DNA from: Perna viridis
Taxonomy: Eukaryota
Length of the DNA stretch: 64,000 nucleotides
Direction of reading: 5' to 3'
Assembly (NCBI GenBank): GCA_037379345.1
Contig: CM074519.1
Coordinates: 30,282,103 to 30,346,102, forward strand
A program made the translations under genes and the position numbers. Of the stretch, positions 541 to 54,142 are shown in pieces. How positions within the stretch are numbered: the stretch's first letter is position 1; the number at the start of each line of letters is the position of its first letter. A model generated the notes under the pieces. It did no database searches and was not told the DNA's origin. It was given only the letters and a program-made list of their open reading frames with translations.

Positions 541-3500
541 CTACGTAAATAATAACCCGCTGTTGTTTTCAATACATTACATATAAATGTACTCACTGTA
601 CAGAAATTGATGATTAACAGAATGTTCTCTGTGTAATACTTTTTGTTTTCTATATCGGACTGTCGCACAAAAACGTTAAGACCTTTTTTGCTTTCGTAAC
701 TGGTATCGCATAAATTATGTAAGTATTTTTTTATTTCACGAACAATTAAAGCTTTGTCTATACAATTCTATGACATTTAAAAAAAATACTTATTTGTTTC
801 GCCATTCAATACTCCCCTTTGTAGGAGGCTTTTAGGAAGTTGTACGTAAATATATTTTAAAGATACAGTTGCACATCATATCAAATACCACTAATTAAGG
901 GTAACAACAAAAATACCAAACACTATTCCGATTGATAATCAAGTCAAGTTCAAAAGAAATTTGGCAAAATAGATATTACACCACCGGAACAGATGGTACC
1001 GCAATTGTCCTGATTTGGTTACTTTCACTTCAAACAAAAAGGTGCGTTAAATCTAGAAAAAAAGAAAACCTACCAGTTTTATCGTTACATTGACCATTCA
1101 CACATCTAGGACATGGTTGACAGTCTTTGCCCCAATGTAGAGGTACGCAAGAGCTACAGTCATCTCCAATAAATCTGTCACCACATACACAAACATTCGG
1201 ACGGACACATATACCATGTCCGCTACAGCTGTTAACGTCTCTGAAAAGTAGTTGGATCAATTCTTGTCTGTCTAAGAATCAGGCAAAATGTGAATAAGGT
1301 GTGTACATGAAGGAAAGAAACACATATATTTTAATGCATTATCCATGCATTTCTACCTCATAATCACTAGAAATAAAAATGAAAGTGTTTATAAAGCTTG
1401 CGTTTTTAAGATATTGATTCGTCAGGTTTAGTTGAAATATACTATATACAAATGGTGGGAGCATTTTTCAGCACTTTTTCCCTATATAGGCATGCAATCA
1501 AACATATCTAAGTCACAGATGCTTCAGGACAGATTTAAATAGCTTTTTAATGGTTTTCTAGATGTATTAAATATATTTTAGGCAAAAATGACTACTTTGC
1601 GAAAAATGATGTGCCACCTACTGCCTGATTCTTACCCTGATTCAGGGAATTTTAAAAATTAAACATGTAAACTCTGTATCAACTTAAGTAGCTGTCTTTG
1701 TAAGAATCATGCAAAATCTGAAAGATGTGATACACCCAAAAAAGGCTACATATTTTTATTTTTATAATTAAGTTGCGTTATAGGTCTATACCATGAAATG
1801 TGTAATTATTCATTCAAATCTGCCTGCTCTTGAGAGATAATCAACATTGAAAATCCAATAGGTTCTATTGTATTTGAATGTCATGTACAGAGTTATATCC
1901 CTTAATTTTAAAATCTACAGTGCATTCTATATAATTTTTATCTCATAAGAACACGTGTTATATGAAAAACTGAATGTTAATGTCTGTTTACTATGGCTAT
2001 TCAAACCAAATATCAAAAATAAAAATATGTAGGCTTTTTACCCATGAATCACCTTTCGCATGATTCTTAGCTTGAGTGCTACATAACAATTCGACGTTTT
2101 ATGTACGTGTATTAATTTAAATGTACACGATGTTGATAATTAACTATAGAAAAGTATCAACAGTAAAACTAAGGCGAGATTAATTATACCAACATTATTA
2201 TATAATCTTGGAAGGTATTTATCAATATATTTGTCTTATACATATATATGTCTTTTGGATGCGTAAAGCTGTATTTTCCCCAGGCAACATAGGGGTCCAA
2301 TACATTCATTCAAGCAATACATTAGCCTTTCCAAGAATAACATACAGAACCAAATCAAGAAAATAAAAATATTTTGTGGCATAGACAACCAATCGCTACA
2401 CTTACCTGTCGAACGTCAAGCGGTAAAATGTTCCAAAAAAGAAATCATAGAGAAGTTTCATTGCTTGTGAATGTTGAATATATCGAAATATTTCAACTCG
2501 CTTTATTTTAATGTACCTTCATAACAAACTCCCCAAGGCTTGTTTCGTATGATATTGGAATTTACTTTAGTTGATATTCAGCAATATTCAACTTTCACTC
2601 ATCACAAAACCTGTAGACAGCTCACTGTGAACTGATAGTTGTTGCTATAAAACAGTAAACCAGTATTTTCAATATTTCTCGAGATTTGCTTTCGGAAAAA
2701 AAGAACGAAATATCGGAATATGCTAAGCTAGATTACATATCAAGGATGTTTCTATATTAGATTTTTTTTCTACTAGTAAGCCTATTTTCCATGTTGGTCC
2801 TGATAAATTACATAAATGGTATATAAATTACATACCTACATAATGCCCGTGTGCACTGCTTGCCAGCCCATCCACCACTACAGTTACAAACATTTGGACC
2901 AATACATTCTCCGTTACCATAGCAACTGTTTACATCTGAGCAGTCGTAATCTGTACACATTTCTCCCGTCCAACCTAAAAATAAAAAAAAATGGAGTTCT
3001 ATCACAAAGAATATGACCCCCACCAAAAAATAAACAAACAAACAACACAAACAAACAAACCAACAATAAACCAAAAAAAAATAAATAAATAAACACTCTT
3101 CCTGATTACCAAATGCATATTTCTCATAATCAAATGCGATTCCTATTTAGTTTGTATATTGAAAGCCACCATTTATAACTTGAAGAATTATGGAAATTCA
3201 CATATATTTAACAATATATAAATTTCAACTTAAAAAAAAACCCATTTTATCGGTAATATGTATTTTTTCCTATGATCTCGTTGACAGTAATTTCTCTATC
3301 TCTTATAGGTGACAGGATATTCTACAGGGTCCTGTGCGTGTCCAGGTGTCAAACGAATAGACCAACAGTAGCGCTAAGCTTTGACTACTTGGGGTTTAAA
3401 CACAAGCAATCATTCAATCAGCCAAGACATTGTTAGTGATTGTGGTGACGTAATCAGATCTCCTTTATAGGGTTGCATGAAAATGATGTCACGCATCAAT

Positions 3501-6500
3501 AGTACTGTCAAGTCACACTACCAGTTTTTTTTTCGCGACAAAAGTAGTCCTAATGTACATCAAAATGACTAGAAATGCAATAATAAAATTACCGATAAAC
3601 AGAGTAATAGTTAACTTCGATTTTGATACTGAAAAAATGATGAATATTTCAACTCTCGTTCACTCGATCGGCGAGATATTTCACATAATATGGTCAATAT
3701 CAAAATCGAATTAAACTAAAATTTAATATCAGTAGATCCCATTTATGCATTATAACGTTTTGATAACAACCTAAAGAGGAACCATATGTTTAACCGTTTG
3801 ACTTTCAAACAGACAAACCTGATTGGCAGCGACATCTATTGGGCCTTACACATTGTCCCTTGTCACTACAATTGTTGACCCCAGAGCAATCGATATTGTT
3901 GTTTGTCAACACGGGAGTGATGTTGACAAACAGTAACGAAGTGTCACGATGACTGTCGTAGATACGGTTATAGGCGTGGCTAAAGTTGTAACTCCCCCAC
4001 CAATTATATGAGGCATTTACATGATCTTGTGCTGAAATATAAAATAAAAGTAAAACAAACTTCATAACGTTTAACTCAGTGTTTGGTTTACAACATGCGC
4101 TGTAATGGCTTCCATTTTTACTTACACCGAGAAGTGCTTTTTAAATATTTGTATGATGAATCAAAGATAATTATAAGACAAATGATACTTAGCATTTGGA
4201 AATTGATTTTTTTCTATACTAGTATACTAGTTACATATCTCAAAGATTTATAACCTTGTTTGTCCAATGTATTGTAGAATATTATATTGATACATGTAGC
4301 AGTGTTTTATCGAATGTTCTCAGTGTAATAAAGTTTGATATTTCACACTATGGAATAAATTAGGTATTTTCACTCTCGGACTTTCTTCCGTCAAAACGTT
4401 TCAATAGGGAATAGCATTCCATCGTCAGTGTTTTATCGAATGTTCCAAGTGTAATAAATTGTGATAATTTACACTGTGAAATAAATTAGGTATTTTCACT
4501 CTCGGACTTTCTTCCGTCAAAACGTTCCAACAGGGATTAGCATTCAATCGTCAGTGTTTATCGAATGTTCCAAGTGTAATCAATTGTGATAATTCACACT
4601 GTGAAATAAATTCGGTAATTTCACTCTCGGACTTTCTCCCTAATGGCTTGAAAACGTCACAACAGGGAAAATTAATCCGCCGTCAGTGTCTTATCGAATG
4701 TTCCCAGTGTACCAAATTTTGATAATTTACACTGTGAAATTAATTCCGTAATTTCACTTTCTGACTTTCTGCTGACAAAACGTCACAACACGAATATCAA
4801 TCAGCCGTTCCCAAAATTTTAAAATTCATTTTAACAAAAAAGCAATGAATAATGGAGGAACTCTACATAATAAATACAATTAATTTTTTATCGTGAATAA
4901 CCAAAATATGATCACTTGTGCCTAGAAGCATAAAGATTTAACTCGTGCGCGGGACAAGTTCCGTACACTCGTTAAATCTAGGCCTTCTTCGGTCCTCGTG
5001 ATCATCTTTTGGTTATTCTCTCTTTTCAATTAACTTTCCTATTATTTCTTACCTTTCCTTTTCACATAAATATCCAACGATGTCTCTGGGTTGTCAAATA
5101 TGTTATATGACAAATTGAAATGCCGAGACTCTAAAATAATTGTGGCTAGATTAGATTGAGTAGACAGGAACTGGTTGTAGTAGAATGTTCCATTTAATTC
5201 GCCTATGACGTCGCTTGTAAACACATTGACACAACACTCACTGTCGATGTTTGTGAAGATATTTGTACTAAAATCAATGTATCTTCCCACATGAGTTGAT
5301 TTGGTTTCAGTTAACAAATCAACTAAGCATTGGTTCGGTTGTCTACAGAAGGCGTTCTGAATTGTGTTGTCGTGAAAACTCAGGGAAGCATTGTTCCAAG
5401 TTTGTAAATATAAATGACAGGTATTTGTAAAAACATTCAATCCAATATTTGCATGTCCCATATATGCATTGGTATTGTATTCATTTGAAGGTAATTCTAT
5501 GTGTAATGCGTCCCTTGTGATGTTTGAAAAATTATTTTCGTTGATTTCGACGGTATTCTTATCCGATACATAATGGGTCCTAAAATCGACCCCGTTAGAA
5601 CAGTTGGCAAACGAACACCGTCGTACTTGTAAAGTACCTCCATAATATCCTGATTCCGTATACACACCTTTTATACTATTGGTAATATTGCTGTCAAAGA
5701 TTTGCAAGTTAACTTGTTGTTCTTCCATCACAATGCCTGTTGAAACACTGTTTATGTGCACATTCCGAACAATAACACTACCACTTTCGGTAATAAGAAT
5801 ACCATGGCTCTTACAGCTGTCAATTAATGTTTTAGAGAAGTCATAAGTTATGTCACCATCTGATGAAGGAGTAATGGTAATACAAGATCCCTTGGAACTG
5901 CTTATACGTGATCGTTTAATCTCAAACTGAGATGTGTATGCTACAAATCCTTTCTCAGTATTTGACATGTGAAGTAGGTGTATTGATGAAAACTCTACAA
6001 ACAATCGAAACATCAAATAGAGGCTCCCAGGAGGCTGAATCGCTCACCTAGTTAAATTTTTGCCTTTTAAGGGCAATAACTCTAACAAGGAGTTGTCAGA
6101 CAATTTTGACTCCATTTGATTCATTGGACACATTTATAAGCCTTATAATAAGGATCACCTCATCAATTGAAAGCTATTGGCTAAACCTAACAGATTTGGA
6201 GATACAGATTTGGAGATTTATGCAAAAATCTGCTGTCTGACCCCATTGTTATATTTTGGGAAACGGCAGCCATACCCTATAAAACAAAAATGTCAACTTT
6301 CGTTGAATTCTCTAGAGCAGATTTTTTAAAGTAATAATATCATAAACAGAAAAAAACGTCCAAAAATGGTAATAACTCCAACATGGGTCAACAAATTTTC
6401 ATCAATTTTGACCAAAGATAGATCTCTTCATGCTGATTAATTTGACTTCATGTCAGATTTTGGTCAAACCTAACCGTTTTGTAGATATATGCAAAAAATC

Positions 6501-15500: not shown

Positions 15501-18500
15501 CCAGTAAAACTATTATTAAGGACTTCAATTTTTTCCACTTTTGATATTGTTTTAAGAATCGAGCCAACATTGCCTAGGATTATAAAGGATGATCGACGTA
15601 ACGCACTATTGAAATTTGAAGAACATAATTCAAACTTAAACATATCGTTCCTGACTGTCTTAAACGCACTATCATTACATTCGAACATTACATGAACCTG
15701 ATCGACTTGTACGTGCTGCTCCGTTATGCGAAACAAATACCCTGTCTCACTTGAAAGTTTACTTTCTGTTATCCGTATTGTAATGTTACCCTTTTTATTT
15801 ATGTGTAAATCTGCCAAACCTGTCTGTGTTGTTACGTAAGAGTTTTGTATGAGAAGAGTAAAGTCCTCTCCTCTACTGTATGCCTCTATAAGTCTGTTTG
15901 TTTGTGTCACAGTGCTGCTTTCTATGTTAATTATCGAAGGGGCACTTTTAATGACAGAAACTTCGATACAATCAGACAAATTTGAGCCTGCAATCTGTAT
16001 ATCTACAATTGAAATAAATGAAAGGCAAACTTGATAAATAAGACGACATCGGGACATTGATTAAAGACACTGTGTACAACATATGTAAATGTAACTGATT
16101 TAAATGAATTATGTAAACTTAGAAATGATTGCGTGCATTCATAATTGCAATTTTGTCATTTATATTGCAAGCTTTTATTGAACATGGTAGGACCTCTCGG
16201 TGATGTATTCAGCTTCTTATTTCGATAGTTTGTTCAGAGTACTTCTTGTATACAACTAAATTTTGGATAATGATTTTCCTACTTCTCGAATTATAATGCT
16301 GCTGAAGAGAAGTTACTCTTGTTCAAGAAAAATAAGATTTAATTTGACTAAGAAAAATAAGATTTTGTTGAATTACATACATTTTTGTGGTTTTAGTCCT
16401 AATATTTCCTTGTACTTTTGATCAAAATCCTCTGTTTTAAGTTTCGAAACTTAAGCGTTGCATACTTGGTAATATCAAGAACTTGATTTGAATTATTTGA
16501 ACCATTTATCTTCTTCGGTATAAGGAGCTGATAGTTTGCGCCACTATTTCACAACAGACAATGACAATCAGACGACATTGTAAACTAAAACAGAAGATTA
16601 CACCGATAATAGTTTATTCTGGCAGCCTGTTTCCAATCGCAAAATCGTTTTATGGAATAAGAATGCAATTTCTATATATTGTCACAAAAAAAATACATTG
16701 TTGTATATATATTCCACACAAAATATTAGAAATGAAACCGGGGAATGAAACCCTTGTGGTTACTTTTTAATACCTGAACTATACACATGAATGCCATTCC
16801 ACTTTCCTTTGCCAGTTTCACCTCGTATGGTTGTTGTAACCGTAGAATTTCCGATATCGAGTGGTCCTTAACAGACAAAAACGTGTGTACAGTAAATATG
16901 ATAAGATGTTGCTAACCATAAATTTTATACTGTTTCAAATGAAAGTATAAGTCATTGTGCGACTGTTATAATTAGACAAAAAGTCTTCATCTGCCCCATT
17001 ACAGAAAACAAAACAAAAATTGACAGACCTAAATTTTCATGTTTTTTTTCTTTGTTATTTCAAGTTATGACATAATTTACAAATCCACAAACATTTTCTT
17101 TATCTCTAAATAAGTACTGTTAAACATATTTTTTTGCAAAGGCATGGGCAACAAAAAGAAATAATAACAATAAAAAATAATAACGCAAAATAAACGCGGC
17201 AGTTGAAAAGATACCTTGTAATATAAATCCTCTCTTTGGTTGCACTATTAAAATTCCCCCACTGATATTAAATCTTGATGTCTTGTTGACAATAATTGTG
17301 CGATTTACGGACACCTTCTCACTTTCAGTAAGTGATAACACAAAATCAGACTCAATGACCCCACCAATAATGGTAAATCCTAGCTCCGGATCATAGTGAC
17401 GACTGAAAATATCTGCTGCCCTTACGTCATTTGGTGATGTCATTTCCGAAGTCAAGTATATCATATCAGTCAACACACGACCTTTTGTAGAATCAATGAA
17501 AACGTCACAAATTTTGCTTTTTACTAAATGTACATTGTCCGTTCCCCAGAAATTATAGCTAGCAGTAATATGCTGGTCTTTATCGAATTTTTCGCCAATT
17601 TTAAGTAGGCAAGTTGCTTGAGTGTTGTTTATAAAACTATTATAAGACATAGTGTGTCTTAGGTCCGTTTGAAGGTACACCACAGTTGGTACGCTGCTTT
17701 CTTTAAAGGTGTTTTTCGTAATGGACAGGATAGAGTTCATCGACAAGATTGCAGATTGTTCCACACCATAGACGTTGTCAAACGTGTTATTTTCTGCAAT
17801 GATGTTGACAGGTGTTTTGGAATTCCCCTTTATTTTGAGTCCACCCCTAACGTTACTCAGGATATTGTTGGTTATAAAGGCATCACTTCTGACCCCAAAC
17901 CTAAGATAGACAGGGTACTCATGGTGATATTTATGGTCACGGATAATGTTGTTTGAAATTATCAGGAAGATAATTAGATTTGCATTATTGAAGTACGAAG
18001 AATACTCTAGGTAAACTTGCTGATGATAATTTCCTTTAATCACATTGTTGTCAAACAAATGACTTAAGTTGGATGAACAAGTCCAACAATGATATTCTAA
18101 ATAAACACCGGAATATCCGTTTAACGTAACTTCCGAATTCGAAACATTCACCTGGATTGGGAAATTAGTAAAGGATGTACTTAGATGTATGCCATATCTA
18201 CCATTCCTTGAGAATGTCGAATTTTCCAAAGATATCGATATAGGGAGTCTATCGGAAGAAACTAATCCAGCGTGTTTATTACCATTCAAATAACAATAAT
18301 ACAGCTTGAGCTCAGTGTATGCAGTATCGGTTTTGTCCCAATTTTCTATAACAAATCCGTGATTTTCATTCCAACTAAAATCTGATTTTTCAATATAAAT
18401 AGATGGTCGTTCTTGAACTCCAATCAAATATATGCCATAATTGTTGTACATGGATTTGGTATTAGAAACGATAGGGGAAGACGCGTTTTGACCATTAACG

Positions 18501-21500
18501 GATTTGCTTTCTGTTCCTCCTGATATTTTAATTCCTGAGTAACAACCGTAAATTAAAACGTGGTCGAGGCGAATTCCGAGTCCATCGCCCTGTACCCCTA
18601 CTGATGCTTGACGAACTGTTGTATGTGTCAGAGTTATATTTCCTGAAAGATGCATTTAAAAATCTTTAAGAATTGACTCAAAATGCTATTGGAAATATGT
18701 GAGAAAAGTTTTTCTCTTCGAAACGCGAACCTTATTCGTAGAGACAACCATGGTCACATTACCTTAACTACATTATAAATTGAGACCTTAACGACTCAGT
18801 TAACTAAGATGTTTTTAATCCAAAGAGTATGAATTAAGGGAGGACGTATGATGATTAGTTTACTGTAAAGCGAAGCCAGGCTGAAAAGGTCTTTTGAGAA
18901 AAATTTTGGAAAATCACAAATTCAAGCAAATAATATACAATTTGTCTAATCTTTGAGTTTTGTTTGTTTTTTTTTCGGGGGGAAGGGGGTGGGGTAATAT
19001 ATTTTTGTCGATTTTAGGGGCAAACGTTTCCTCAACTATCCCCCTTTTGAATCAACTACGGAATAATATAGCTGTTTGTGTTAATTCGTTTGTACCTTTT
19101 TTGTTGGTAAATCTAAGCCGTGAACTTTTTTATTTTTCCACTTGCAGTACATAAATGCAGGATGTAAATGCTTATTTTAATTCTATTAGAAAGGCAATAT
19201 AAAACTGTTTTTCAATTTATTTAGACATCCGCTTTCGTTATTTTTTACCTTAATATGTCAAAATTGCAAAAGTTCACATTTTAAATTTAATTTAATCAAG
19301 GCGTCTCAATATTTTTTGTTAAATTTGCAATATGTATATATAGTTACATCATGTGCTAATGTTCGCGCTCTAGATTTACTTACGAGGAAGTATCACTCGG
19401 TTAATGAAAGCTATATTTTATTTGGCCGAGTGGTCTAGAGCGTTGGACTTAGTGCAGACGGTGTTGACATAGATGTCAGTGAAGAGAAGGGGTTCGAATC
19501 CCGCAGAGGGGGCGACCATTTTTGCATCGCAAATTTGCAACCTCGCATCGTTCCTAGAGTTGGGGTGTAGTTTAGACTTGATTAGAGAGAGAGATAAGAG
19601 AGCAAATTAGATTAAAGTATTTTTTATTCCCATACAGCACATTTTTTTCAAGTCTGTTTCTGTAGCGAGAACTCATTACAAACATTCATTACACACGTTA
19701 CTACAAGAATACCAACCTCCAATCTTTCGATGGACACCGTTCCAAAGACCTTTCATGTTCAGCACAGGAAAGTAAGTCTGTTTCTGTAGCGAGAACTCAT
19801 TACAAACATTCATTACACACGTTACTACAAGAATACCAACCTCCAATCTTTCGATGGACACCGTTCCAAAGACCTTTCATGTTCAGCACAGGAAAGTAAG
19901 TCTGTTTCTGTAGCGAGAACTCATTACAAACATTCATTACACACGTTACTACAAGAATACCAACCTCCAATCTTTCGATGGACACCGTTCCAAAGACCTT
20001 TCATGTTCAGCACAGGAAAGTAAGTCTGTTTCTGTAGCGAGAACTCATTACAAACATTCATTACACACGTTACTACAAGAATACCAACCTCCAATCTTTC
20101 GATGGACACCGTTCCAAAGACCTTTCATGTTCAGCACAGGAAAGTAAGTCTGTTTCTGTAGCGAGAACTCATTACAAACATTCATTACACACGTTACTAC
20201 AAGAATACCAACCTCCAATCTTTCGATGGACACCGTTCCAAAGACCTTTCATGTTCAGCACAGGAAAGTAAGTCTGTTTCTGTAGCGAGAACTCATTACA
20301 AACATTCATTACACACGTTACTACAAGAATACCAACCTCCAATCTTTCGATGGACACCGTTCCAAAGACCTTTCATGTTCAGCACAGGAAAGTAAGTCTG
20401 TTTCTGTAGCGAGAACTCATTACAAACATTCATTACACACGTTACTACAAGAATACCAACCTCCAATCTTTCGATGGACACCGTTCCAAAGACCTTTCAT
20501 GTTCAGCACAGGAAAGTAAGTCTGTTTCTGTAGCGAGAACTCATTACAAACATTCATTACACACGTTACTACAAGAATACCAACCTCCAATCTTTCGATG
20601 GACACCGTTCCAAAGACCTTTCATGTTCAGCACAGGAAAGTAAGTCTGTTTCTGTAGCGAGAACTCATTACAAACATTCATTACACACGTTACTACAAGA
20701 ATACCAACCTCCAATCTTTCGATGGACACCGTTCCAAAGACCTTTCATGTTCAGCACAGGAAAGTAAGTCTGTTTCTGTAGCGAGAACTCATTACAAACA
20801 TTCATTACACACGTTACTACAAGAATACCAACCTCCAATCTTTCGATGGACACCGTTCCAAAGACCTTTCATGTTCAGCACAGGAAAGTAAGTCTGTTTC
20901 TGTAGCGAGAACTCATTACAAACATTCATTACACACGTTACTACAAGAATACCAACCTCCAATCTTTCGATGGACACCGTTCCAAAGACCTTTCATGTTC
21001 AGCACAGGAAAGTAAGTCTGTTTCTGTAGCGAGAACTCATTACAAACATTCATTACACACGTTACTACAAGAATACCAACCTCCAATCTTTCGATGGACA
21101 CCGTTCCAAAGACCTTTCATGTTCAGCACAGGAAAGTAAGTCTGTTTCTGTAGCGAGAACTCATTACAAACATTCATTACACACGTTACTACAAGAATAC
21201 CAACCTCCAATCTTTCGATGGACACCGTTCCAAAGACCTTTCATGTTCAGCACAGGAAAGTAAGTCTGTTTCTGTAGCGAGAACTCATTACAAACATTCA
21301 TTACACACGTTACTACAAGAATACCAACCTCCAATCTTTCGATGGACACCGTTCCAAAGACCTTTCATGTTCAGCACAGGATAGTTAGATGACAATGTCA
21401 CCAGTACGTCTTCTACTCCGATTGTCAATAACATTCCTGAGAGGTACATGTAAATTAAGAGTAATATCATTTCATTATTTCGAATTCGCAAAACGTTAGC

Positions 21501-24500
21501 TGAAATAAAATGCTTTATTATGGGAAGAGAAGAACAAAATAAAACAAGTAAGCTAGCACTGAATGTAAGGAAAATTTCACAACAAAGAATAAAATATAAT
21601 GTTGCTAAACATGTGATAAAAGACTTCATTAGAGAAGGCATTGATAATGAGAATTAATTCTCACGAGAAATGAAAATTATAACTTTAAAAAAACTATGAA
21701 CAATGCCCACTAAAATGATATCCCCTACATGTATGTCCCATTAGATAACACACACCTCTTCGCGTGCACATTTATTTGGATCATAATCTAAAAAAGGAGT
21801 GTATAACAGGAATATCTAATAAAGACTGTGAAAGTTTCATTGAATGATTTAGGAGTAGTAACGGATAAGATGGGTACCCTTGATTTTCTATATAAATGAA
21901 TGACGAAGTCCATGTTTTGTTTTATATAACTTACAAAGAGATTAGGAACAAAATCGGAAGTAGAAGGTGGACAATCAGAATATGTAATAAAGAATTCATG
22001 AAAGTTTCAGTGATGTTGGATAAGTACGAGATAGTTATCCCTCTGCGTAACAGAGGATGTACAGACGCAAGAAAGAACGCGGAACAAAGGACGGACATCC
22101 CTATCACTACATACCCCCACTCTGCAAAAAGGGATGTATATATATACAACGTCTCAGAATGTGACGACTCTATTCTCTACACTGCTCCATCGGATCAACT
22201 TGATACAGGGAAGATAACGTAAACTTATGGAAGTGTCTGAAAAATTTCCAACGATGTTAGAACTGTCAAATTTGCGAAGCAAATTTTTGTCGTTCCCTCC
22301 GCGGGACTCGAACTCATACCGCTGTGGCATCTATGGCAACATCGCCTGCACTAAGTCCAACGCCCTAGACCACTCGGCCAGCTAGGCTATATAAAATGTA
22401 GCTTTCGCTGGCCGGGTGATTCCTGTCCCGTACTACCATACATCATGTACTAAGTTACAGCCCTAGATTAATCCTACGAGGAGGAATCACCCGGCCAGCG
22501 AAAGCTATATTTTATATAGCCTAGCTGGCCAAGTGGTCTAGGGCGCTGGACTTAGTGCAGGCGGTGTTGCCATAGATGTCACAGCGGTACGAGTTCGAAT
22601 CCCGCGGAGGGAACGACAAAAATTTGCTTCGCAAATTTGACAGTTCTAACATCGTTGGGAATTTTTCAGACCCTTCTATATATATATATATAATGGGAGG
22701 TATAAATCAAAAAGAAAAGATCTAATTCCAAATTTTTTTACCTCGTTGAAATATGACAAATTTTTGTACAAATATATACAAAATAGCTGGATACCTCAAA
22801 TATTGGATTTAATCAACCGTGATAGGAAGTGAACCAATATTAGACACTTAACACTTATGACTAAGTTAAAACATTTTTAGATCTTATATTGATATTTTGT
22901 CTCCCGCAGTGGGGCTGTCGGATCAAGAGGAAGGGTTCCAGAGGGGGATAGAACCAAATAATACCATGTAAAGAAATACTTTGACTTTTTGTGTGTACTA
23001 AAACATAGCGGAACTCGATTGAGGAAAATGTTATGGCATTTCTGTGTTTTTAAGAAGAAAAAAAAAACAACTTACAGCAAAGTTGTTTTTTTAACTGATA
23101 TAACAATATATAACACATCTTTCTCTATCTATCTATCTGCTACATTGTAACTCGACGCGGTAGCATATTATATATATCATACAGCACCAACACACCTTTA
23201 AGGGTATAACATTTTTACATACCATACACGTCAATTCCAGCGTCCATAGTTGTAAATATGACTGATACCCCAGCTTGGATTTCCAGTGTGGCGAGAGGTC
23301 GTATTTCTATCCTTTTTTCTATTACAATAGGGCTCTGGTTAGGTATCCACACTGTATTTGTCTACAAATATATATATATAAGGGTCTGAAAAATACCCAA
23401 CGGTGTTAGAACTGTCAAATTTGCGAAGCCAATATTTGGTTGTTCCTTCTGCAGTACTCGAACTTGTAAAAAGTAGTTGTTCTCCTTTGTATATTCCGAG
23501 TGATCGTCGCTGTTCAATATAATTAATTAAGTGTTAGTAAATAAGTATGTATCTAATTTGTCAGTTAGGTTTTGTTGTATCTAAATATGCGTTTGTTTGA
23601 CTCCTTTCCTACAAGCCTTGAAATGACCATTCATCCATTAAAAACAATTCTGACAAATTATTAGAACAGGTGTAATACATATACATGTATACTTAACATT
23701 TATGATGCTAAATGTATGAAGAAAGGTGGATTTTTAAGTGCCCACCTTACCATTAACTACACTGATGTGTATGATCCGAAGTCATTTTCTTTTCATGTTA
23801 TATTTAAACCCGGATTTTTTTTTAAAAGTGGACAATGAAGAAGTCTATACTGAAAAAATGTAAATATTTTTGTTGCAAAATCTTACTGAACAGTAGCGGA
23901 TCTTGAGACTTTCAAAAAGTTGTTCCATTCTATAATGCCATTTGGTCAGATCACCAAAATTTGGCACGACATTTACAAAGTTGTTATTAATAAAGGATGG
24001 GATTTCATCCCCACCGACCCTCTCCAAGAACCACCACTACTGCAGTTGTTTATAGTTCGATCAACAAATGAAACAACTTGCTGCAACAGTTCAATGTAAT
24101 TCATGGCGACTGTTTCTATGTCAATCTTCTAACCATTTCAACCCCTAGTCATAGCAAACAATCAAACTTTTTTTTTAATTTTTAAACCTGGAACTTTGGT
24201 GTATATTCCACCAGATTTAAAACAAATGCGAATTTTACTCTCTAATACGAACTAGATATTCTAAAAATAATGATATTCTGATGCTTTGAAATTTCTTTTT
24301 CCAATTATATACAATATAAGAGTTTGTCGCAATGTAATCGTAAACATTCTTTCCCGTCTGCAGCCCTAAAAGAAATTAGATAATATTTATGATAAATGAC
24401 TATACAAAATCTTCTTTTTTCATAGTACACGAATTCTTCGTTCGTTCCACGATTTTCCCATCAGAACTTGAGTAACTTACATTTATGTCTTCATTGATAT

Positions 24501-27500
24501 GAGTACTAACTCCGTCACCAGATTCTCTTTTTTGGTTACATCCCACCAGCTTCACGAGTAAGGACGGATTACAGTGATATTCTACAGGGTTAAAAACAAT
24601 GAATCGTGTCTGGAAAGGAATAATGTAAAACTGTGAAATGAAAAAATACCTGTAGAATGAAGACGTATAGTAAATATAGATTTCATAGACTAATATTGAC
24701 CGCTTATTTCGTCTCGATAAAACATAGTTATATAGTTTTCCGCTTAACATTGTAACCGTGGTATCATTATATTTTGAATTTAAACATTTTCCATAAAAAC
24801 ACACATATTTTTAAGTATTTGATCATTTTTTAAATTTCAAATGACAACCGATCGAGTAGGCCTTGGAAAATCAGTTCATCATCGTAAGTAGAAAGTTCAC
24901 AATATAGGTGAAGTTTGTAATGTCCAAAATATATCCCTAATGTTATTATTACATGGACAAGAACAATATGCATGTACATAAGCGTCTTCAAAAACCGCAT
25001 TACACACCTTGTTGGTGTCTGGAGTACAGTAACTGTTGGAATTGTAGTTATCAGTTTCTTATAAAGTAAGAGTTCCGTATTTCACTGAACGATTTCGACT
25101 GTTTCCTAAAGGTTGCTATTGAGACTGTCCTGTGAAGTTGTTTGAAACGAATAAAGTCATTATCGGTTTCGATTCGGTTTGTTGATTATGAATTGCTCTG
25201 TTTACAATTAATCTCCATTTTTTTTGGTGGGAATAATCCTATATCAATATAGTCTACCAGGTATTCATTAAGGTTGTACAAACATAGAATGTTGAAGGGG
25301 CGGATCCAGGATTTTAGATGGGTGGGGGGAGCAAATTAAAATTTTCGCCGAGCGGAGGGAGGCGAAAAATTTTTTGAGGTTAAATTTTTGAAATATTCTT
25401 CTCGAGTTGGTGCAAAGTAGATATCTTTTGTGGTAAAATTAGCGAAAAATTTAAGTTTCAACCTAAATCCGCCTAAATCTACCTCTGACAACCCATGCTT
25501 TGCAAATTTTAGGGGGGGGGGAGAACGCCCGCCAAGCCCCCGCCTGAGTCTGCCCCTGTGTTGATGACATCCGGAATAACCCCGTACATTTGTCTTCCTG
25601 AGTATTCTTTTGTGATTGCAACTGATGATCGGATGCAGTCCAATGATACTTGCACACACATATCGATTTTTTTGTGGATATGTGTAAATCAAAATTTATT
25701 TAACAATAATTCTAATCATGAGATTCTTCATAGTTATAGCCGTTTTTGATTGGTCGAGAACGTCGTGGCCAGAAAGTTCATACATGCATGAATTTCGCCA
25801 GATCGTTCATACATGCATAATTCTAATCATGAGATTCTTCATGCTTATAGCCGTTTTTGATTGGTCGAGAACGACGTTGCCAGAAAGTTCATACATGCAT
25901 GAATTTCGCCAAATCGTTCATACAGGCATAATTCTAATCATGAGATTCTTCATGCTTATAGCCGTTTTTGATTGGTCGAGAACGTTGTTGCCAGAAAGTT
26001 CATACATGCATGAATTTCGCCAGATCGTTCATACAGGCATAATTCTAATCATGAGATTCTTCATGCTTATAGCCTTATTGCCAGAAAGTTCATATTGTTG
26101 TATTTCCTTAATAATTATATTCCTGTTGAATTGTTTACATCTCATATTTTTCAATGCCAACTATCACTTCGTTGATGCCGCCTTCACTGTCGTTGTGCAG
26201 CCTTTATAATGAAAAGCATTTTTTTCCCTTTCTTGCAAGCAGCTTCACTTCTCTTCTGTGATTTAAAAGGAAATTTAAGTTTTACACCGTATACTCGTCA
26301 ACCATTGAAATTATTTCGTCACCCATACGCCAAATAATATTGGAAACAAATATCGAGAGTACGTTGGGGTGAGATACAGGTAGTCGACACACATTATAGT
26401 AATACCGTATTGGTGTTATTTTATGGCCTGGGAACTAAACACATTGTTTTGGCTATCAAATCCAATCTATAACTAAATATACATAATACAGACTTAGACA
26501 TAAATGCACGTGTAGCATGCAAAGCAAACTCAGCCCACCTCTCACACTATCGGCTTATTTTAATGCATTACAATTATATATATTTAGCTAAAGAAGGTGA
26601 TGAACTTCCAATTTCCTTACTATGATTCTCATGTTACAAATTAAATCATTAATAATTTCCAAATATAAAAAACCTGACAAAACACTATCTTGTCTAACAC
26701 CCTCTAACACAGAAAATGAGGGTGATTGACATTGGTTTACAATCACAGAACTCTTTGTGTTAAGACGTAAATCATTAACAAGTGAGCTTACAATTTCAAC
26801 ATTAAACCCTTCCTCCATACAGTATCAAACGCCTTTTGGCTGTCTAAAAAAAAGCTACAAAGACTTTGCTATTAGATTCAAGATTGTGAAAAATAGTTTC
26901 ATGAAAGTTGAAGGAGGCGGTTAAGCAACTGAGATTCTTCTGAAATCCGTTTTTGTTGAGGATTCGAAAAAGCCTTCACCAATAGTTTAGGTTAGTCTAC
27001 TTTTAATCACATGTTCGAACACTTTCGATTTTCAAGGCAGACGTGTGATGGGCCTATAACGGAGCTTGGTTTATTGTTTCCTTTAAACAGTGGTACTAGT
27101 AAGCCGAATTTCCAATCGGACGTCACATGACCTTTTCTTACAATAAGATTGCACATGGACGTCAAAATTTCAATTAACAAATCACCTCCCTGTATTAAAT
27201 GTATCATAACCTTCGGCTTTCTTTCGTTTTAATGACTTAATGATATCACGAACCTCACTACATTCAATTTTACCTCCTGGAAGATCACCACTATTGGAAT
27301 TACAGTTAGTAATTATGTCTTCATAATGAGAACTGGCGTGCTGTTCCTTGTCTGTATCAAACGTATCATGTTCAGTATTGTTTAAGTTTGCAAAATATTC
27401 CATAAAGCCATTTGCAATCAAAATCGGATTGTTACACACTAAACCATTTTATATTATTCTTGAGTAAATTTCCGACATTTTTGGTTGAAAGTTTTTAACC

Positions 27501-30500
27501 ATTTTCCAGAATAAGCGTAAATCGCACTCCGTGGCTTTATTTGTTTGTAGATACTTTTGAAATGCATCCTGTTGTGTATTTCGAAATTCTCTCTTTGTTG
27601 TTTTATATTGCCTGTATGATTCATGTTTTATCCCCCTTGGTCGAACATTTTCAACCCACTTATTTTGCAGTGTTCGTTCTGTTTTTGTGAGCACACTTTA
27701 CCTCGTCAGACCAGTACAGTTAAGCATGCGGGTTAAATCCACACTGAGGAATACTCTTTGCGGAAGCATCGTGTAAGCTTTGTACAAGTTTTGTATCAAT
27801 GTTATCTAAATTGGAGTAATTTTCATCATTTGCTGATTTTTTTTAAGTAGCTGTCTTTGTAAGAATCATGCAAGATCTGAAAAATGTGATACACCCCAAA
27901 AAAGGCTACATATTTTTATTTTTGTAATTAAATTGTCCTATAGGTCTATACTATAAAATGTGTAACTGTTCATTCGAATCTGTCTGCTCTTAGGAGATAA
28001 TCGACATTGAAAATACAGTAGATTCTATTGTATTTGAGCGCCATTTACAGAGTTATCTCCCTTAATTTTGAAATCTACAGTGCATTCTATATAATTTTTA
28101 TCTCCTAAGAGCACGGGTTATATGAAAAAACCACGTTATTTTCTGTTTACTATGACATTTCAAACAAAATATCAAAAATAAAAATATATAGGCTTTTTAC
28201 CCATGAATCACATTACTACTACATAAATACATAAGTTTATTAACAATTACTGCGATACATCGCAATTCTCTTACAGCCCAGGGTAGCTGAATAAGGGGTT
28301 CCCTATTTTTACACCTCTCATATCCAGGGAACATATGAGAGTCAAATTACTCCCGTTTCTTAATGTTTCTTTCTGTACACTGAACAATCTAAATGTATTT
28401 CTTTGTACTATTATCCTACATTTAAAAATACTGAAATTGCTGTGTCTTGATACATTTTTATCTGCTGTGTGTAATTTTATACCAAGCCGGTAGTTTGTCA
28501 AATGAATTTATCACTACATGTTGAGTCAAGTCCGTTCTAAATCCGACTGCAATAGGAACGGATGTACTAGAAAATGAACCCTCTTCAAGGATTTCATAAG
28601 AGCTCAGTTGCTTAGTCACAACAGGACTAAACAGTACATAGTCAAGCATTACTTTTTCGTAAAAAAAAAAATGTAATCGCGACCTTTATGATTGACAGTA
28701 CCACCAGCATATGATAATTCAAATTTTGAAACAATTTGCTTTACTTTTCCTAACTTTTGCTAATTAGAGTGAACTAAATCTTTACTCAAACAAATGGCAT
28801 TGAGGTCTCCTGCTACAACTTTACAACCATACTTACAATAATTTGTATGCAAAATCATTAGCTTGACCATAAGATCAAATTAAAGGTCATATAACACCAT
28901 CTTTAATATTATGCTACACATCTTCATGAACTAGGCTGAAATAACCTCGTACCGAATACAGAAAGCTTACACCAAAGGACAAGTCGGGCACTAATTATAG
29001 CCCAAGCATATGTGTTATCTCATATAACTATTACTTATAAAGTATATTTTAGGTGAGGTTAATTTGTGAAAAAATCGCCTACGTTAAAAACCGCGCCGGA
29101 AACCAAGAAACTTACCGTCAAGACGGGATTGAGGTTAAATGTTGTGACAGTCTCTTGTCGCTGAAATACTTCTCCGAGTACATCACTTGACAATAAAGAA
29201 TTGTATGAACTCCAAAGAAGGCCATCGTTACTATATGTGATCCTGGAATTGTTAACAAAAAGAGATACAAAATGTTTATCAAAATTTTTAATCCTCAGTT
29301 TATTTCTAAAAGTCTGGCAGGGTATGACGTTAACATTTAATGAAACTTGTCCTACCGAGCTGATGAAAATTCAACTTATCCAAACTGAAATCTAGTTTGT
29401 CCTTTAGTAAACGATTGTTGAAAAATAAAATTTTGTTGTTCTCCTTGCAAGTATAATTTAGGTTTTAATTGTCCCCATGGTAGTTTCACTTGTCTCGGGC
29501 AACATGACAACCTTAAACATCACACCTTGTATGGAATATTTTTATACGGTCTTACATTTGTCACTTTTGTCACGTAGGATTGATTTGTTTATGGTAATCC
29601 CAATCATACTAAACTGTGTCGACATGACTATATATAAACTTATTAAAAACATTGGCTATCTTTTCTTTTTATTTAAACATCAGGTTTGCATGTAACAGTT
29701 GTTAAGTTTGTAATTTCCTTTACAATTCTCCAGCCTCAATTTTGCTAATTTATTTTTTTCATGATTTTTTTTTCTATCTTGATAGAAATGCATTATCTCG
29801 ATCTATTTATTGAATAGATGCAGGTGCCTTTCTGGGTAGACAATTTTGTTACTAGTCTAGTAATACCTGAATGATTCTGTTCGACAATAACTTTCAACAT
29901 CTTTTATTTCTATCGCAGTAATCTTCGTAACCGCTTTTAAATCAATTTGTAGATACTCAAAAATAGTTCTTTTTCCAGCAATCCAACCCTCTGAAATCAT
30001 GCATTAAGTGTAACTCAAATATTTGTAACAACAGAGCGAACAAACATTTCCCTACCGATGCACCTGGTCCATGCTCCCAGTTTTTAGTGGAGTCCGAGTT
30101 GCTCATTTACTTTTGTTTCTTTGTATGTATGATTTTAGTTACTTTATGTTCTTTGTTGTGTATGTCTGTTTTCCATGTCTGGTCTTTGTCCCTGGATTAC
30201 ATTCTTTTGATTACCGCTATAACCTTGGTTCCCTTGATTACTCTTTCGAATGGAAATATCAGGCCTTGGATCAAACTCCAATATAAAAGATACAATATCA
30301 CTACTTTCATCAAAAGAACTATGCCAAAGTCATTGAATTACACATACAATGACAATTTCAAGGGAAAAATGTAGTGTCAAATCATTCTAATAGAGAGGTC
30401 ATTTCTTTTTTAAACATGTACATGTAATACAAACCAGTGTCAGGGGTAGATCAAGACGCTTTGGAAAGGAAAGGAGCCAGACTGGGTACCTCAGACAAAA

Positions 30501-33500
30501 GAGGTGCTAAGACATTTTTTGACAATTTTTACACATGAAAATAACAAATTTTCAAACAAAAAGGGGGTGCTGACCCCCTGTACACTCTTGTGGTGTAGTA
30601 AGTTGGTTGCATGTCCAGGTGGGGTTTCTTAGAAAAATAGGGTGCTAGGTCATTATTTGTAATTTTTTGTTACTTTTACAGATGAAAATAACACATTTTC
30701 CAATAAAAATGGATTCCAACCCCCCTGTACACCCCTTTGAATCTGCCACTATAAGTGTAGTAAGTAGGTTGCATGATCCAGGCAAGAACAAAAATACATG
30801 TAACAAGTCTTGCAATTACTTATAACATGTATATAGATGTAGCAGCGGTTTATTGAATGATTGATTGATAAATTATCTTTATTTCCTCCACTTTATGAAG
30901 ATTTACAAAGTACGACACATAAAGTAATTTAACTACAACATATACATACTGCTCATGAAAAAACAAAAACATACTGAATATAGTGAATTGTGGTAGATTA
31001 CAAGTACCTATTGTCCAAAATTAAATTTGTTATGAAGTAAGACAACACGGAAATCATTGTACATTTTAAGCAAGTGACAAGCTATACAAAACATCATTTG
31101 CTTCCATGTATCTGAGTTAAGTTCGTTAACAAAGTCGGTAACGCCACCAAAGAGAGTAAGAACAAAATGTACCAATAAAAAGGGGTGCCAACCACCTGAA
31201 CACCCTCTAGGTCGGCCACTGACTGAAGTATGTAGGTTGCATGTCCAGGTGCGAACAAAAATACATGTAACAAGTCTTGCAATTACTTCTAACATGTATA
31301 TAACTAGCAGCGATTTATTGAATGTCCCCTGTGTAATGCATTTATTCGACAATTCACATGAGAAATAGATTAAGTACACCTGTACTTCCTCCCGCCATTT
31401 ACGTCAAAACACGAATATCAATCCGCCGATCACTAAATTTAACTTTTATGTTGAAAAAGCAAAAAATAAAAATTAGAAAACTATGTACATGTAATTGATT
31501 CGTCGTTGTAAAAAAGAAAATAATTAAATATAGTTGTTCATGCCAAGAACGCTCGAAAGTTTAATTCGTGCTCTCGTTAAATTTTGTCGTTCTTCGGCAC
31601 TCGTGGTCATATTTTGGTTATTCACTCCAAGGAGTTAAATATCCTTGTTCACTCTTTCCAGTTACATGTAGTTAGCCTATCATAAACTTTCTATTTCGGC
31701 CATTTGGTTCTATCCTTTAATGGTTATGCTACATTGTAGTATATTCATATATTACCAGTTAGAAAATATAGTTCTTCTGCACAAGCAGATCCGGATGGGG
31801 TGTCCGCCGCCTTACGTTATTAAATTCTGGTAGATTATATAGAAAGTTCCAGGAGCGGGTCTCCTTAAAGGCCATACACTCAGTGAAACACCCTTTTGAA
31901 ATGCAGTTACATTAATCGGACATCACACTTACAAAAGTGATAGATGGTTGACCGATGGAGATCGTCTTGTCTTAAAAAAGTTTTACGTCAATTAAAATGA
32001 ATTTACAAACCTCCATCTATTCTTCCGGCGCTGGCATTATGGGCATCACTTGTGTACGATGAGGCAGAGTACTGATGGTACTCAATATTGTCTGTCAATG
32101 TATCATTACAGGAACTAGCATCTGTAAATAAACATACTTACATATTATTGGAATAGCAACAAATCGAACACCAATCATAATCGAATCATCATTTATCCTG
32201 GATTTTCACTTTTCAAAATCTACGTTAGTTTTTTTACATTGATAATAAGTTAAAAATTAACATTTGGGTTTATGTTCAGATACTTTATTCATGGATGGGG
32301 TGGCAATTTTACACCTAATTTAAATTGGTAAAGTTCAAATATTTTGTTACTCGGGCTCATTTGAAAGCTAAGACATTATATAATTATATTTGAATATACA
32401 AAAGATTTTTTGAAGGTATTATATTCGAAAAAAAATTGTCCATTACAGGTGAAATGGAGGAAAATATGAAATTCCGAAAATTCCCTATTTTATGATAAAC
32501 TCATTATGATCATATTGAAACTGAAAAATACTCATCTGAAGTGAGAAGATATGTTGAATACATCTATAATTAAAAGACAAGTACCCAACATGTCTATTGT
32601 ACATCGTTTATATGCTAAAAATTAACATTTTAGTTCACGCTCAGTTCTTTTTTTTCATGGTTAGGGTTGGCAATTTTTCACCTAACTTGAAAAGTTCAAA
32701 TATTTATTACTTGGGCTCATTTGAAGCTTATACACTATATTAATGTACCATATCACACAAAAAAAATTGTTTCAACTGTGGTTTGTGAAAAAAATGACAA
32801 TAATGGGTGATATACCCATTTATTTTTTATTTTTTAGCAAATTTAACCACAAAAATAAAATATAATCGCCTGAGGTGATCAAATATGTTGGGTACATTAT
32901 TATCTTAATTATGATTGCCTAAAATATGAGTTCTACAGTGTCGGTATGCTGTGAATGAGAATTATGTTTGATATTGAGACCAGTTTTCTAGGGGTAGGTG
33001 TAATATTTTTAACATTATTTGAAAATTCGTTATTGAAAATTAGTTTTTCGTGGTTTATTTATGTAGAAAATTAAATTATCTATGGAATGACACCAAATTC
33101 GAGACGTTTTTGTGAGCATTTAATTGTAGAGTCTAACTTATGTGACTTTTTACGGAAAAAATCGAAAATCCCATTTTTTGCACATTTTGATACATTCTGA
33201 CTACAAACATCGCCGAAATTCATCAAAAGAACCCCAAAAGTATTAATTGTGTTAATACTAAACAGAAAATACCAAATTAGCAATTTTTTCCCTGAAGCAT
33301 AGTTACTCTAGGGGTTTTGACATTGAAAATAATGCCAATTTGGGCGATTTTTCGGTGGGATTGGGGTACATTTTTTTCATGTACCCTACCGGTGCACCTG
33401 GTCCATGCTCCCAGTTTTTAGTGGAGTCCGAGTTGCTCATTTACTTTTGTTACTTTGTATGTATGATTTTAGTTACTTTATGTTCTTTGTTGTGTATGTC

Positions 33501-52191: not shown

Positions 52192-52640
52192 AGATTTGTT
52201 GCACACACCCCTCAATTCGAACTCGAGTATTCACGTATATACAATTCCGAATAATCTTGTGTTACAATCACACCTGGCTGAAGAAACAACAATCGAAAAG
52301 TGTCAATAAAAGGGAATAATGGTGTTAGGACAAGGGACTTCTACTATTCAAAATGTGCATATCAACAATGTTTTCACTGGACTTTTTATGAATGAATAGC
52401 GAGGTAATTTGCTGATTTTCAACAGCATTGTTACCAATAGTAAATGGGGTGTTTATACTGAATTAAGAAATTATGGAGGAACTCTGCACATACGCGTAGC
52501 AAATTTACAAATTGTACTAACGGCATTGACTTCAGAACAAACTACAGGAGTATTAGTTACTCTGATATTAGTGAAAATGTCTTTTCAAATATAAAAGATG
52601 AAGCATTACTCATTGAGTTCCCTTCATCTAATTCTTATAA
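52192..52640 (+). pseudogene. Degraded paralogous copy of exon 15 (beta-helix module 4), opposite orientation
   Basis: Translates to FVAHTPQFELEYSRIYNSE*SCVTITP...NVHINNVFTGLFMNE*RGNLLIFNSIVTNSKWGVYTELRNYGGTLHIR/FTNCTNGIDFRT, aligning with exon 15 FVAYTSQFEIKRSRI...NVHINSVSTG...GVYTESGYYGGTLQVRR..FANCSNGVDFRT; contains stops and frameshifts. Confidence 0.85.
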
Positions 52641-54142
52641 CAAACTTTACTTAGCCAACTATGCCAACTGATCATCTGAAACTAATTTTTCAATCGGTTA
52701 GTGATATAAACTGTTTGAATAAACTGTTAGAATGCATTTTATAGCAGTATATATTGTATTTACCAAATATTCCAGTGACTCATTATTACATAAAAATAAT
52801 TTGTTACATCTATAATACTTTTTTTCTAAACATACCTGTTTCAAGTTAATAAATGCAAACGTTGATACTTGCATTCGTGTTAAGTTCGACCACCCAAGCT
52901 TGTCATATCATAAAGAAATATATTTGAGCTACAGATGAATGCGTTGTGCGTTTAGTTTACATTGTCTACAATCTTAAAAAAAAACAGATAGGTTTACATT
53001 CTCAAAAAATGACACGAGTTCTTTTTGAATTTGCTCATTATATAGTAAGGCTATTACTTTTGGAAGATTCTTCAAGAATAAAGAAGGTACACCTAGGGTA
53101 AGGGAAATAACTCTTTAAATCAGTGGTATGTTTGTATCATATTCAATTTCACCAAAGACTTTCAAGTTTTCCTTTGAGATAGAATGAAATCATCCGAGTT
53201 GCTTTGTATACATGATTTTAGTTACTTTTTGTTCTTTGTTGCGTTTGTCTGTTTTCCGTGTCTGGTCTTGGTCCCTGGATTAAATTCTTTTGATTACCGC
53301 TATAACCTTAGTTCCCTTGATTATTCTTACATAAGATCGATGTAAAATGGTGAATACCAGCGATTCAATGATTTGTAACAGTTGTGTACCTTACTCTAGG
53401 TCTACCTCCTTAAGTGAATACATTTTGTTACACTTTGTTTTACTTTACATTTTATGTAAGAATCCTGTAAGAAATGAAGGATAAGAAACCGATCAGCCAG
53501 AGGTTGCGGAAGAATGTATCTTAATTATAATTATAACTAAACAATAAGTATATTAAAGGTCTTTGAGAAGTAGGCATGTTATAATGGTTTGTATTTATGG
53601 GAATTTAACTCAAGATTTTGAGCTTGAATCATACTTCACCGCTTAAGGGCTCTATGCGAATGCTAAAATAACAATTTCGTAGCAAAAAAACTTGTTCAAT
53701 GATTTTTTAAGACCTAATTAATTTACTTCAAGAAGTCTAGTTTTGACAATGCATCATTACATAATATAGTTCATGTTCATTTTTGCATTTTTGTTCACTT
53801 AAAGTTCGGATAAAGTAAGCTCGATTTGTCATTTTGTCTCAAATGTTGGTTCCATACTTGGTTCCATACTGCATCTCAATGTGAAAAGTTGATTTATTAA
53901 AAAAAATAGTGCTGCGGACAGGTATCAAACATGACTTTAGTTTTCGAGGTTAATGGGCCTAGAGGGTATACGGCAATATCATATGGCAATGGAAAGTTAA
54001 ATCAGTGTGGTTTTTGAATATCGTACTTATCACAGTGAAAACAGTAAAGTTTTCTGTTATTTTGCATTAATTAAAGAACGGATCAAAGATCAATATACCC
54101 ATTACACTTTGATAAGTAATTTAAATGAAATAGTTTATCGTA

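What the first reader, a model, noticed from the sequence alone, without database searches (positions are those of the whole stretch)
19650..21381. About fourteen identical copies of an exon-intron junction: a tandem array of splice donors inside the gene
Seen: the 124-bp unit is the last ~53 nt of exon 7, its GAG|GTTGGT donor and the start of intron 7, joined by 4 extra nt (AAGT) that duplicate the unit start. Each unit also has AG candidates (CTACAG, AAACAG) 57 and 63 nt after the donor, defining 67- or 61-nt pseudo-exons. Neither length is a multiple of 3, and read-through past the first donor hits a stop (...WYSCSNVCNECL*). Inference: only the first donor gives a productive mRNA. The other ~13 are decoy donors or poison exons, so copy number could tune expression via NMD, yield a truncated secreted discoidin-only product, or template circRNAs. 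Perfect identity implies very recent amplification or an assembly artefact.
Basis: partly seen in the sequence, partly recalled or inferred. Interest (0 to 1): 0.7.

Follow-up and report, generated by a model that had tools for sequence, protein, structure and literature searches.

The report
Splice-donor minisatellite in a mussel gene
A 124-base piece holding the end of an exon and its splice signal is repeated 14 times in a large, likely mussel gene and roughly half as often in another animal; such repeats are already known from human and lancelet genes, and splicing likely keeps using the first signal, so this is probably an ordinary variable repeat, not a control switch.

Summary
The array is real: 14.0 x 124 bp (19650-21385), 13 identical units plus a boundary unit differing at one base. 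It spans the exon 7 donor of a minus-strand discoidin/beta-helix/EGF gene. Short-read contig depth gives 14.0-fold over flank in one sample (possibly the source) and 6.3-fold in another animal: no artefact, and variable in copy number. It belongs to a described class, minisatellites whose first unit spans an exon-intron boundary (human F7, CBS, LMNB2, PDGF; amphioxus 'mirages'), where the first donor is usually used. This scan found the same on other DNA at least six times. Here the first donor matches 7 of 8 homologues. All internal AGs score below every real acceptor, and no pseudo-exon joint appeared in two RNA runs (thin: 4 raw reads, 2 reaching the donor, none passing it). One loose end: one RNA-type run holds the whole repeat at 3.5 times exon depth, which is retention, pre-mRNA or DNA. 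I found no mollusc case in print. Interest is low.

The parts
19650..21385 (-). Minisatellite, 14.0 x 124 bp; each unit is 57 nt of exon 7 end + donor + 67 nt of intron 7; 13 units identical
   Evidence: depth support
21262..21385 (-). Boundary unit (first in transcript), holding the authentic exon end; differs from the other 13 at 21382 (Tyr codon, shared with the paralogue)
21329..21436 (-). Exon 7, 108 nt, phase 1-1 (symmetric), GMLLTIG...WNGVHRKIG
   Evidence: RNA coverage stops at 21437 in both RNA runs
21323..21331 (-). Authentic donor GAG|GTTGGT; 13 identical copies follow at 124-bp steps, the last with its GT at 19716-19715
   Evidence: same donor position in the paralogue; raw-read depth ends at about 21328
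18643..21328 (-). Intron 7, 2686 nt (1074 nt without the 13 extra units)
17215..18642 (-). Exon 8, 1428 nt, downstream partner
23223..23361 (-). Exon 6, 139 nt, upstream partner
21205..21312 (-). Example of the 108-nt in-frame, stop-free pseudo-exon defined by the AG at +16 (repeats every 124 bp); predicted only, weak acceptor, no RNA support
24481..32121 (-). Four small exons encoding the N-terminal F5/8 type C (discoidin) domain of the host gene
   Evidence: (one of six exons hits PF00754 at E 0.005, below cut-off)

Best explanation
This is a real tandem repeat of an exon-intron junction that differs in copy number between animals, and it is likely a near-neutral passenger because splicing likely pairs the single exon 7 acceptor with the first donor and removes the other 13 copies as intron. 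Shown: the array, the gene structure around it, and unequal read depth between two samples. Inferred: origin by one local 124-bp duplication, growth and homogenisation by unequal exchange or slippage with the boundary unit left out, and first-donor choice by exon definition, since downstream donors have no good acceptor ahead of them.
For: Depth of the 154-nt repeat contig against the adjoining flank contig: 536.3/38.4 = 13.97 in X1 (13.73 expected for 14 units) and 354.7/56.3 = 6.3 in X3, whose flank differs at 2 of 795 nt. A 12-exon model using the first donor reads 1690 aa without a stop. 7 of 8 aligned homologues run through the exon 6-7-8 joins with only 1-2-residue gaps. The paralogue has the same exon end and donor in one copy. 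All 7 AGs of the unit score -9.1 to +0.2, below all 12 real acceptors (0.7 to 8.3, leave-one-out); 34-72% of 733 intronic AGs score as high as the +16, +57 and +63 sites. Raw RNA X21: 4 reads on exon 7; depth 0.47 in bin 21302-21335 fits 2 reads ending at the first donor; depth 0 in all array bins beyond. No joint is listed within 21200-21437 in any of 4 runs. Precedent: only the first donor is used in F7, LMNB2 and PDGF, and amphioxus mirages splice normally, vary in length and exclude boundary units from homogenisation.
Against: RNA evidence is thin. The exon 7-exon 8 joint was not seen directly, only 2 reads reach the donor, and it is unknown whether the X21 animal carries the array (its exon 7 haplotype differs at 3 sites). 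In X9 (RNA by guess) the whole repeat contig, intronic part and junction included, has depth 16.5 against 4.69 for spliced exon 7. That is 24-53% of exon depth per copy if the animal has 14 or 6.5 units, and 3-7 times the background judged from a dispersed repeat. Contigs drop rare junctions. The acceptor matrix rests on 12 sites and ignores branch points. In human CBS and 6-16, two downstream donors are used. The tool warns that contig depth is not a copy number in general, and X1 may be the source sample.
Confidence: 0.76

Rival explanations
1. Leaky dosage effect: extra donors compete with or delay removal of intron 7, so a share of transcripts that grows with copy number reads through or keeps the intron, meets the stop 12 codons in and is likely degraded (CBS-like).
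For: X9 holds the entire repeat at 3.5 times exon depth while upstream intron 21438-21947 has depth 0. The donor is non-consensus at +3/+4. CBS and 6-16 use downstream copies, and a cited title links the CBS VNTR to lower activity. Copy number differs about two-fold between samples.
Against: Ordinary pre-mRNA or DNA multiplied by 6-14 or more copies could pass the contig threshold where single-copy intron does not; the X9 copy number is unknown. X21 raw reads show none in the array. The donor scores 8.1, within the gene's range of 4.8-9.8.
Confidence: 0.16
2. Exon birth: the AG at +16 (or +91) lets alternate units splice as in-frame 108-nt (or 33-nt) exons, adding to or replacing exon 7 and giving protein isoforms; this is the mirage route to intron gain.
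For: Both pseudo-exons are in frame and stop-free, and the 108-nt one equals exon 7 in length and shares its last 57 nt. The model is proposed for amphioxus globins.
Against: The +16 acceptor scores -3.9 (56% of intronic AGs score as high) and overlaps an identical donor 16 nt upstream; +91 scores 0.2, below all 12 real acceptors. No such joint in 2 RNA runs. Homologues carry no insertion here.
Confidence: 0.04
3. Selected device for a secreted discoidin-only product or for circular RNAs.
For: Read-through would stop shortly after the discoidin domain.
Against: The stop lies upstream of many further junctions, so decay is expected (general knowledge). The paralogue has no array, copy number is not fixed, and no back-going joint was listed in RNA runs. 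Back-splicing needs an acceptor, and those in the unit are weak.
Confidence: 0.02
4. Assembly artefact (one unit wrongly expanded).
For: 13 of 14 units are letter-identical; no comparable array in 1.34 Mb of background; no single read spanning the array was seen.
Against: The junction-containing 154-nt contig is present, with 0 differences, in X1, X3 and X9 (three studies); the X1 depth ratio matches 14 units.
Confidence: 0.02

Closest known systems
Amphioxus 'mirage' minisatellites (Adh3; globins BflGb6 and BflGb9), PMC3087553: passages and section 16 read; the original Adh3 paper (its ref. 68) not seen
   Same: Tandem copies of an exon-intron boundary in an invertebrate; unit of similar size (150-160 bp); copy number differs between haplotypes (6 vs 3); boundary unit excluded from homogenisation; BflGb9 duplicates the 3' boundary of an exon.
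   Different: Here a mollusc, 14 copies and 13 of them identical (BflGb6: 81-100%); normal splicing was shown there by RT-PCR and is only thinly supported here.
Human F7 intron 7 37-bp VNTR, PMC1557585: abstract, Introduction and Discussion read
   Same: First unit spans the exon-intron junction; identical donors follow; polymorphic (5-9 units); only the first donor is used.
   Different: Unit holds 4 exonic nt against 57 here, so ours can define pseudo-exons; mechanism tested by mutation there, not here.
Human LMNB2 (100 bp x 10-15) and PDGF intron 4 (81 bp x 16-18) minisatellites, as summarised in the Introduction of PMC1557585
   Same: Closest in unit length and copy number; only the authentic donor is used.
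   Different: Primary papers not seen; vertebrate.
Human CBS intron 13 31-bp VNTR and 6-16 intron 2 repeat (Introduction of PMC1557585; table row and reference title in PMC1395315)
   Same: Same architecture; the precedent for leakage to the next two donors and for a dosage association.
   Different: Leakage is not shown here; every downstream donor here adds 124 nt that include a stop.

Membership tests
Exon-intron boundary minisatellite (mirage / F7-type VNTR) | Head-to-tail tandem array whose terminal unit spans an authentic exon-intron boundary | tested here: met
Exon-intron boundary minisatellite (mirage / F7-type VNTR) | Splice signal repeated unchanged in the intronic units | tested here: met
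   13 identical donor copies
Exon-intron boundary minisatellite (mirage / F7-type VNTR) | Unit is specific to the locus, not a dispersed element | tested here: met
   14 of 14 genome matches at this locus (lower-bound search); single diverged counterpart in the paralogue
Exon-intron boundary minisatellite (mirage / F7-type VNTR) | Copy number varies between individuals or haplotypes | tested here: met
   depth ratio 13.97 vs 6.3 in two samples; by contig depth only, alleles not resolved, sample might be pooled
Exon-intron boundary minisatellite (mirage / F7-type VNTR) | Mature mRNA mainly uses the authentic donor | tested here: inconclusive
   2 raw reads end at the first donor and none pass, carrier status unknown; repeat contig abundant in X9; exon 7-8 joint not seen directly
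Regulated poison-exon (AS-NMD) cassette | Functional acceptor ahead of the pseudo-exon | tested here: not met
   all 7 AGs score below all 12 real acceptors (small matrix)
Regulated poison-exon (AS-NMD) cassette | Inclusion seen in RNA, raised by NMD block | tested here: inconclusive
   no joint in 2 RNA runs at low depth; no NMD-block data
Regulated poison-exon (AS-NMD) cassette | Conserved across related genes or species | tested here: inconclusive
   absent from the in-genome paralogue; orthologous introns of other species not available
Tandem coding-exon duplication (mutually exclusive exons) | Each copy has its own acceptor and whole exon | tested here: not met
   units hold only the last 57 of 108 nt and lack the exon 7 acceptor

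The most novel reading that the evidence does not exclude
A segregating splice-donor VNTR acts as a natural dial in mussels: more copies mean more read-through or retention of intron 7 (the high repeat signal in one RNA-type run would be its trace), and a 108-nt in-frame pseudo-exon of exactly exon 7's length could be an exon in the making. It would be a natural allelic series for 5' splice-site choice and intron gain in a mollusc.
Probability: 0.15. Interest if true: 0.45.

Novelty: new member of a known kind. Interest (0 to 1): 0.2.

Why it matters
If ordinary, it extends the 'mirage' class to a mollusc, gives a length marker, and shows again that 13 spare donors are tolerated. I found no mollusc case in six paper searches. 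If the dosage reading held, it would offer natural alleles for testing first-donor choice and the mirage model of intron gain outside chordates, though in a gene of unknown function.

Tried and rejected
Homologue search with exon 8 among longer proteins found none; exon 12 found 2 Mytilus proteins; the full HMMER search found 42, of which the 8 with a long N-terminal part were aligned. The run search listed no holder on record as RNA, which is no evidence either way; 4 of 24 listed runs were laid, on one side of the array only. The heuristic search for a signal-peptide exon gave 2 unverified candidates, so 'secreted' rests on homologues' hydrophobic N-termini. The equal length of exon 7 and the 108-nt pseudo-exon looks coincidental: their differing 51-nt halves match at about one third of positions (compared by eye). 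Age from unit identity is uninformative: zero changes has probability 0.11 even without homogenisation. The AG|GT at each donor as a recursive or proto-splice acceptor was rejected (score -1.3, 4 pyrimidines). PMC10078293 and PMC12783039 (passages) gave nothing on this architecture. The notes search for bivalve cases returned 0. No supplements were read.

Full report
Observation. TRF reports 19650-21385, period 124, 14.0 copies. Thirteen units are identical and the unit at 21262-21385 differs at 21382 alone. A search of the genome gave 14 matches, all here. On the minus strand each unit is 57 nt of exon end, the donor GAG|GTTGGT and 67 nt of intron.

Host gene. The window encodes a large minus-strand gene with beta-helix, EGF and TIG exons. 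Its nearest named relatives are uncharacterised Mytilus proteins at 29-34% identity, so the animal is likely a mussel. A 12-exon model using the first donor reads 1690 residues without a stop. Of 42 HMMER hits, the 8 with a long N-terminal part were aligned: 7 run through the exon 6-7-8 joins with only 1-2-residue gaps and 1 (P0005) lacks exactly the exon 7 segment. All 5 homologues scanned have an N-terminal F5/8 type C hit, 4 above the Pfam cut-off. Exon 7 (21436-21329, 108 nt) ends WNGVHRKIG, like sister exons of later modules. A broken paralogue about 60 kb away has the same exon end and donor in one copy, with the Tyr codon of the boundary unit. The first donor is therefore the authentic one.

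Real and variable. Four of 24 listed runs were laid on 21200-22200. In X1 a 154-nt contig, one full turn of the repeat with its junction, has depth 536.3 against 38.4 for the adjoining flank: ratio 13.97, with 13.73 expected for 14 units. X1 may be the source sample, so it checks the assembly but is not an independent animal. In X3 (another sample and study, flank differing at 2 of 795 nt) the ratio is 6.3, about 13 units per diploid genome against about 28; 6+7 cannot be told from 12+1. The tool warns that contig depth is not a copy number in general; I rely on the within-run ratio of adjoining contigs and its match to expectation. The same unit with 0 differences is also in X9 (third study). 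So this is a standing length polymorphism, not an artefact and not private to one animal.

Origin (inferred). The junction reads ACTT twice. In X21, 3 of 3 reads carry the array-type base at 21382 within true exon 7, on a haplotype with two more differences. The simplest reading is a plain 124-bp duplication on such a haplotype, with the boundary unit later exchanged; a 120-bp unit plus a 4-nt insert with an independent change remains possible.

Splicing. With matrices from the gene's own 12 sites, the donor scores 8.1 (range 4.8-9.8) and all 7 AGs of the unit score -9.1 to +0.2, against 0.7-8.3 for real acceptors; 34-72% of 733 intronic AGs score as high as the +57, +16 and +63 sites. Raw RNA X21 has 4 reads on exon 7; the depth of 0.47 in bin 21302-21335 fits 2 reads ending at the first donor, and the array bins beyond are 0; whether that animal has the array is unknown. 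No joint is listed in 21200-21437 for any run. Against my reading: X9 (RNA by guess; its exon contig leaves at the acceptor and the upstream intron is empty) holds the whole repeat at depth 16.5 against 4.69 for exon 7. That is 24-53% of exon depth per copy for 14 or 6.5 units, and 3-7 times the dispersed-repeat background of about 0.35. Retention, pre-mRNA, DNA or a higher copy number could each explain it. The exon 7-exon 8 joint itself was not observed.

Background. In 134 stretches of 10 kb spread over 14 large contigs (six stretches beside the window left out), 4 arrays had unit >=30, >=5 copies and >=95% identity (3.0 per Mb, about 600-5500 genome-wide), and 0 were as long and perfect as this one (upper bound 2.8 per Mb). 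With a recalled order of 150,000-200,000 donors, some tens of such arrays would span a donor by chance; this is a rough inference.

What is known. PMC1557585 (abstract, Introduction, Discussion read) lists F7, LMNB2 (100 bp x 10-15) and PDGF (81 bp x 16-18), where only the first donor is used, and CBS and 6-16, where two more are. PMC3087553 (passages and section 16) describes amphioxus 'mirages' of 150-160 bp with variable copy number, normal splicing by RT-PCR and a model for intron gain. Six searches found no mollusc case; most subscription papers are not covered. Earlier notes of this scan list at least six donor arrays in other genomes with the same verdict and one where the last donor is used (unchecked).

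Verdict. A new member of a known kind, likely neutral (0.76); leaky dosage effect 0.16; exon birth 0.04; selected truncation or circRNA 0.02; artefact 0.02. Interest 0.2.

Noticed in passing
G000:C9:30237000-30244400 (L022, L018), about 40-60 kb beyond the window's low end: Broken paralogue of the host gene with in-frame stops; its exon 7 counterpart (30244277-30244369) is single-copy with the same donor position.
   Followed up: partly
window 52195-52659, + strand: Stray fragments of the same gene family in opposite orientation, one with a stop codon.
   Followed up: no
P0005: A close homologue lacks exactly the 36 residues of exon 7: an in-frame skipped isoform or an annotation miss.
   Followed up: no
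window 22137-22680, also about 19380-19560 and 23380-23468: Very high-copy dispersed repeat (about 43,000 single-copy equivalents by depth at 22152-22185 in X1), arranged head-to-head at about 22230-22680; a piece ends just upstream of the exon 6 acceptor.
   Followed up: no
window 25706-26074 and 4300-4790: Two more intronic tandem arrays in the same gene (111 bp x 3.3, 96%; 126 bp x 3.8, 84%), away from modelled splice sites: local duplication of this size is common here.
   Followed up: no
window 21382, 21390, 21399, 21574: At least three exon 7 haplotypes among four samples; 21382 changes Tyr to Phe, and the Phe-type base is the one fixed in the 13 internal units.
   Followed up: partly
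L067 578-9625 (G000:C11:26.0 Mb): Long mucin-like coding repeat of 66-nt units met in the background sample.
   Followed up: no
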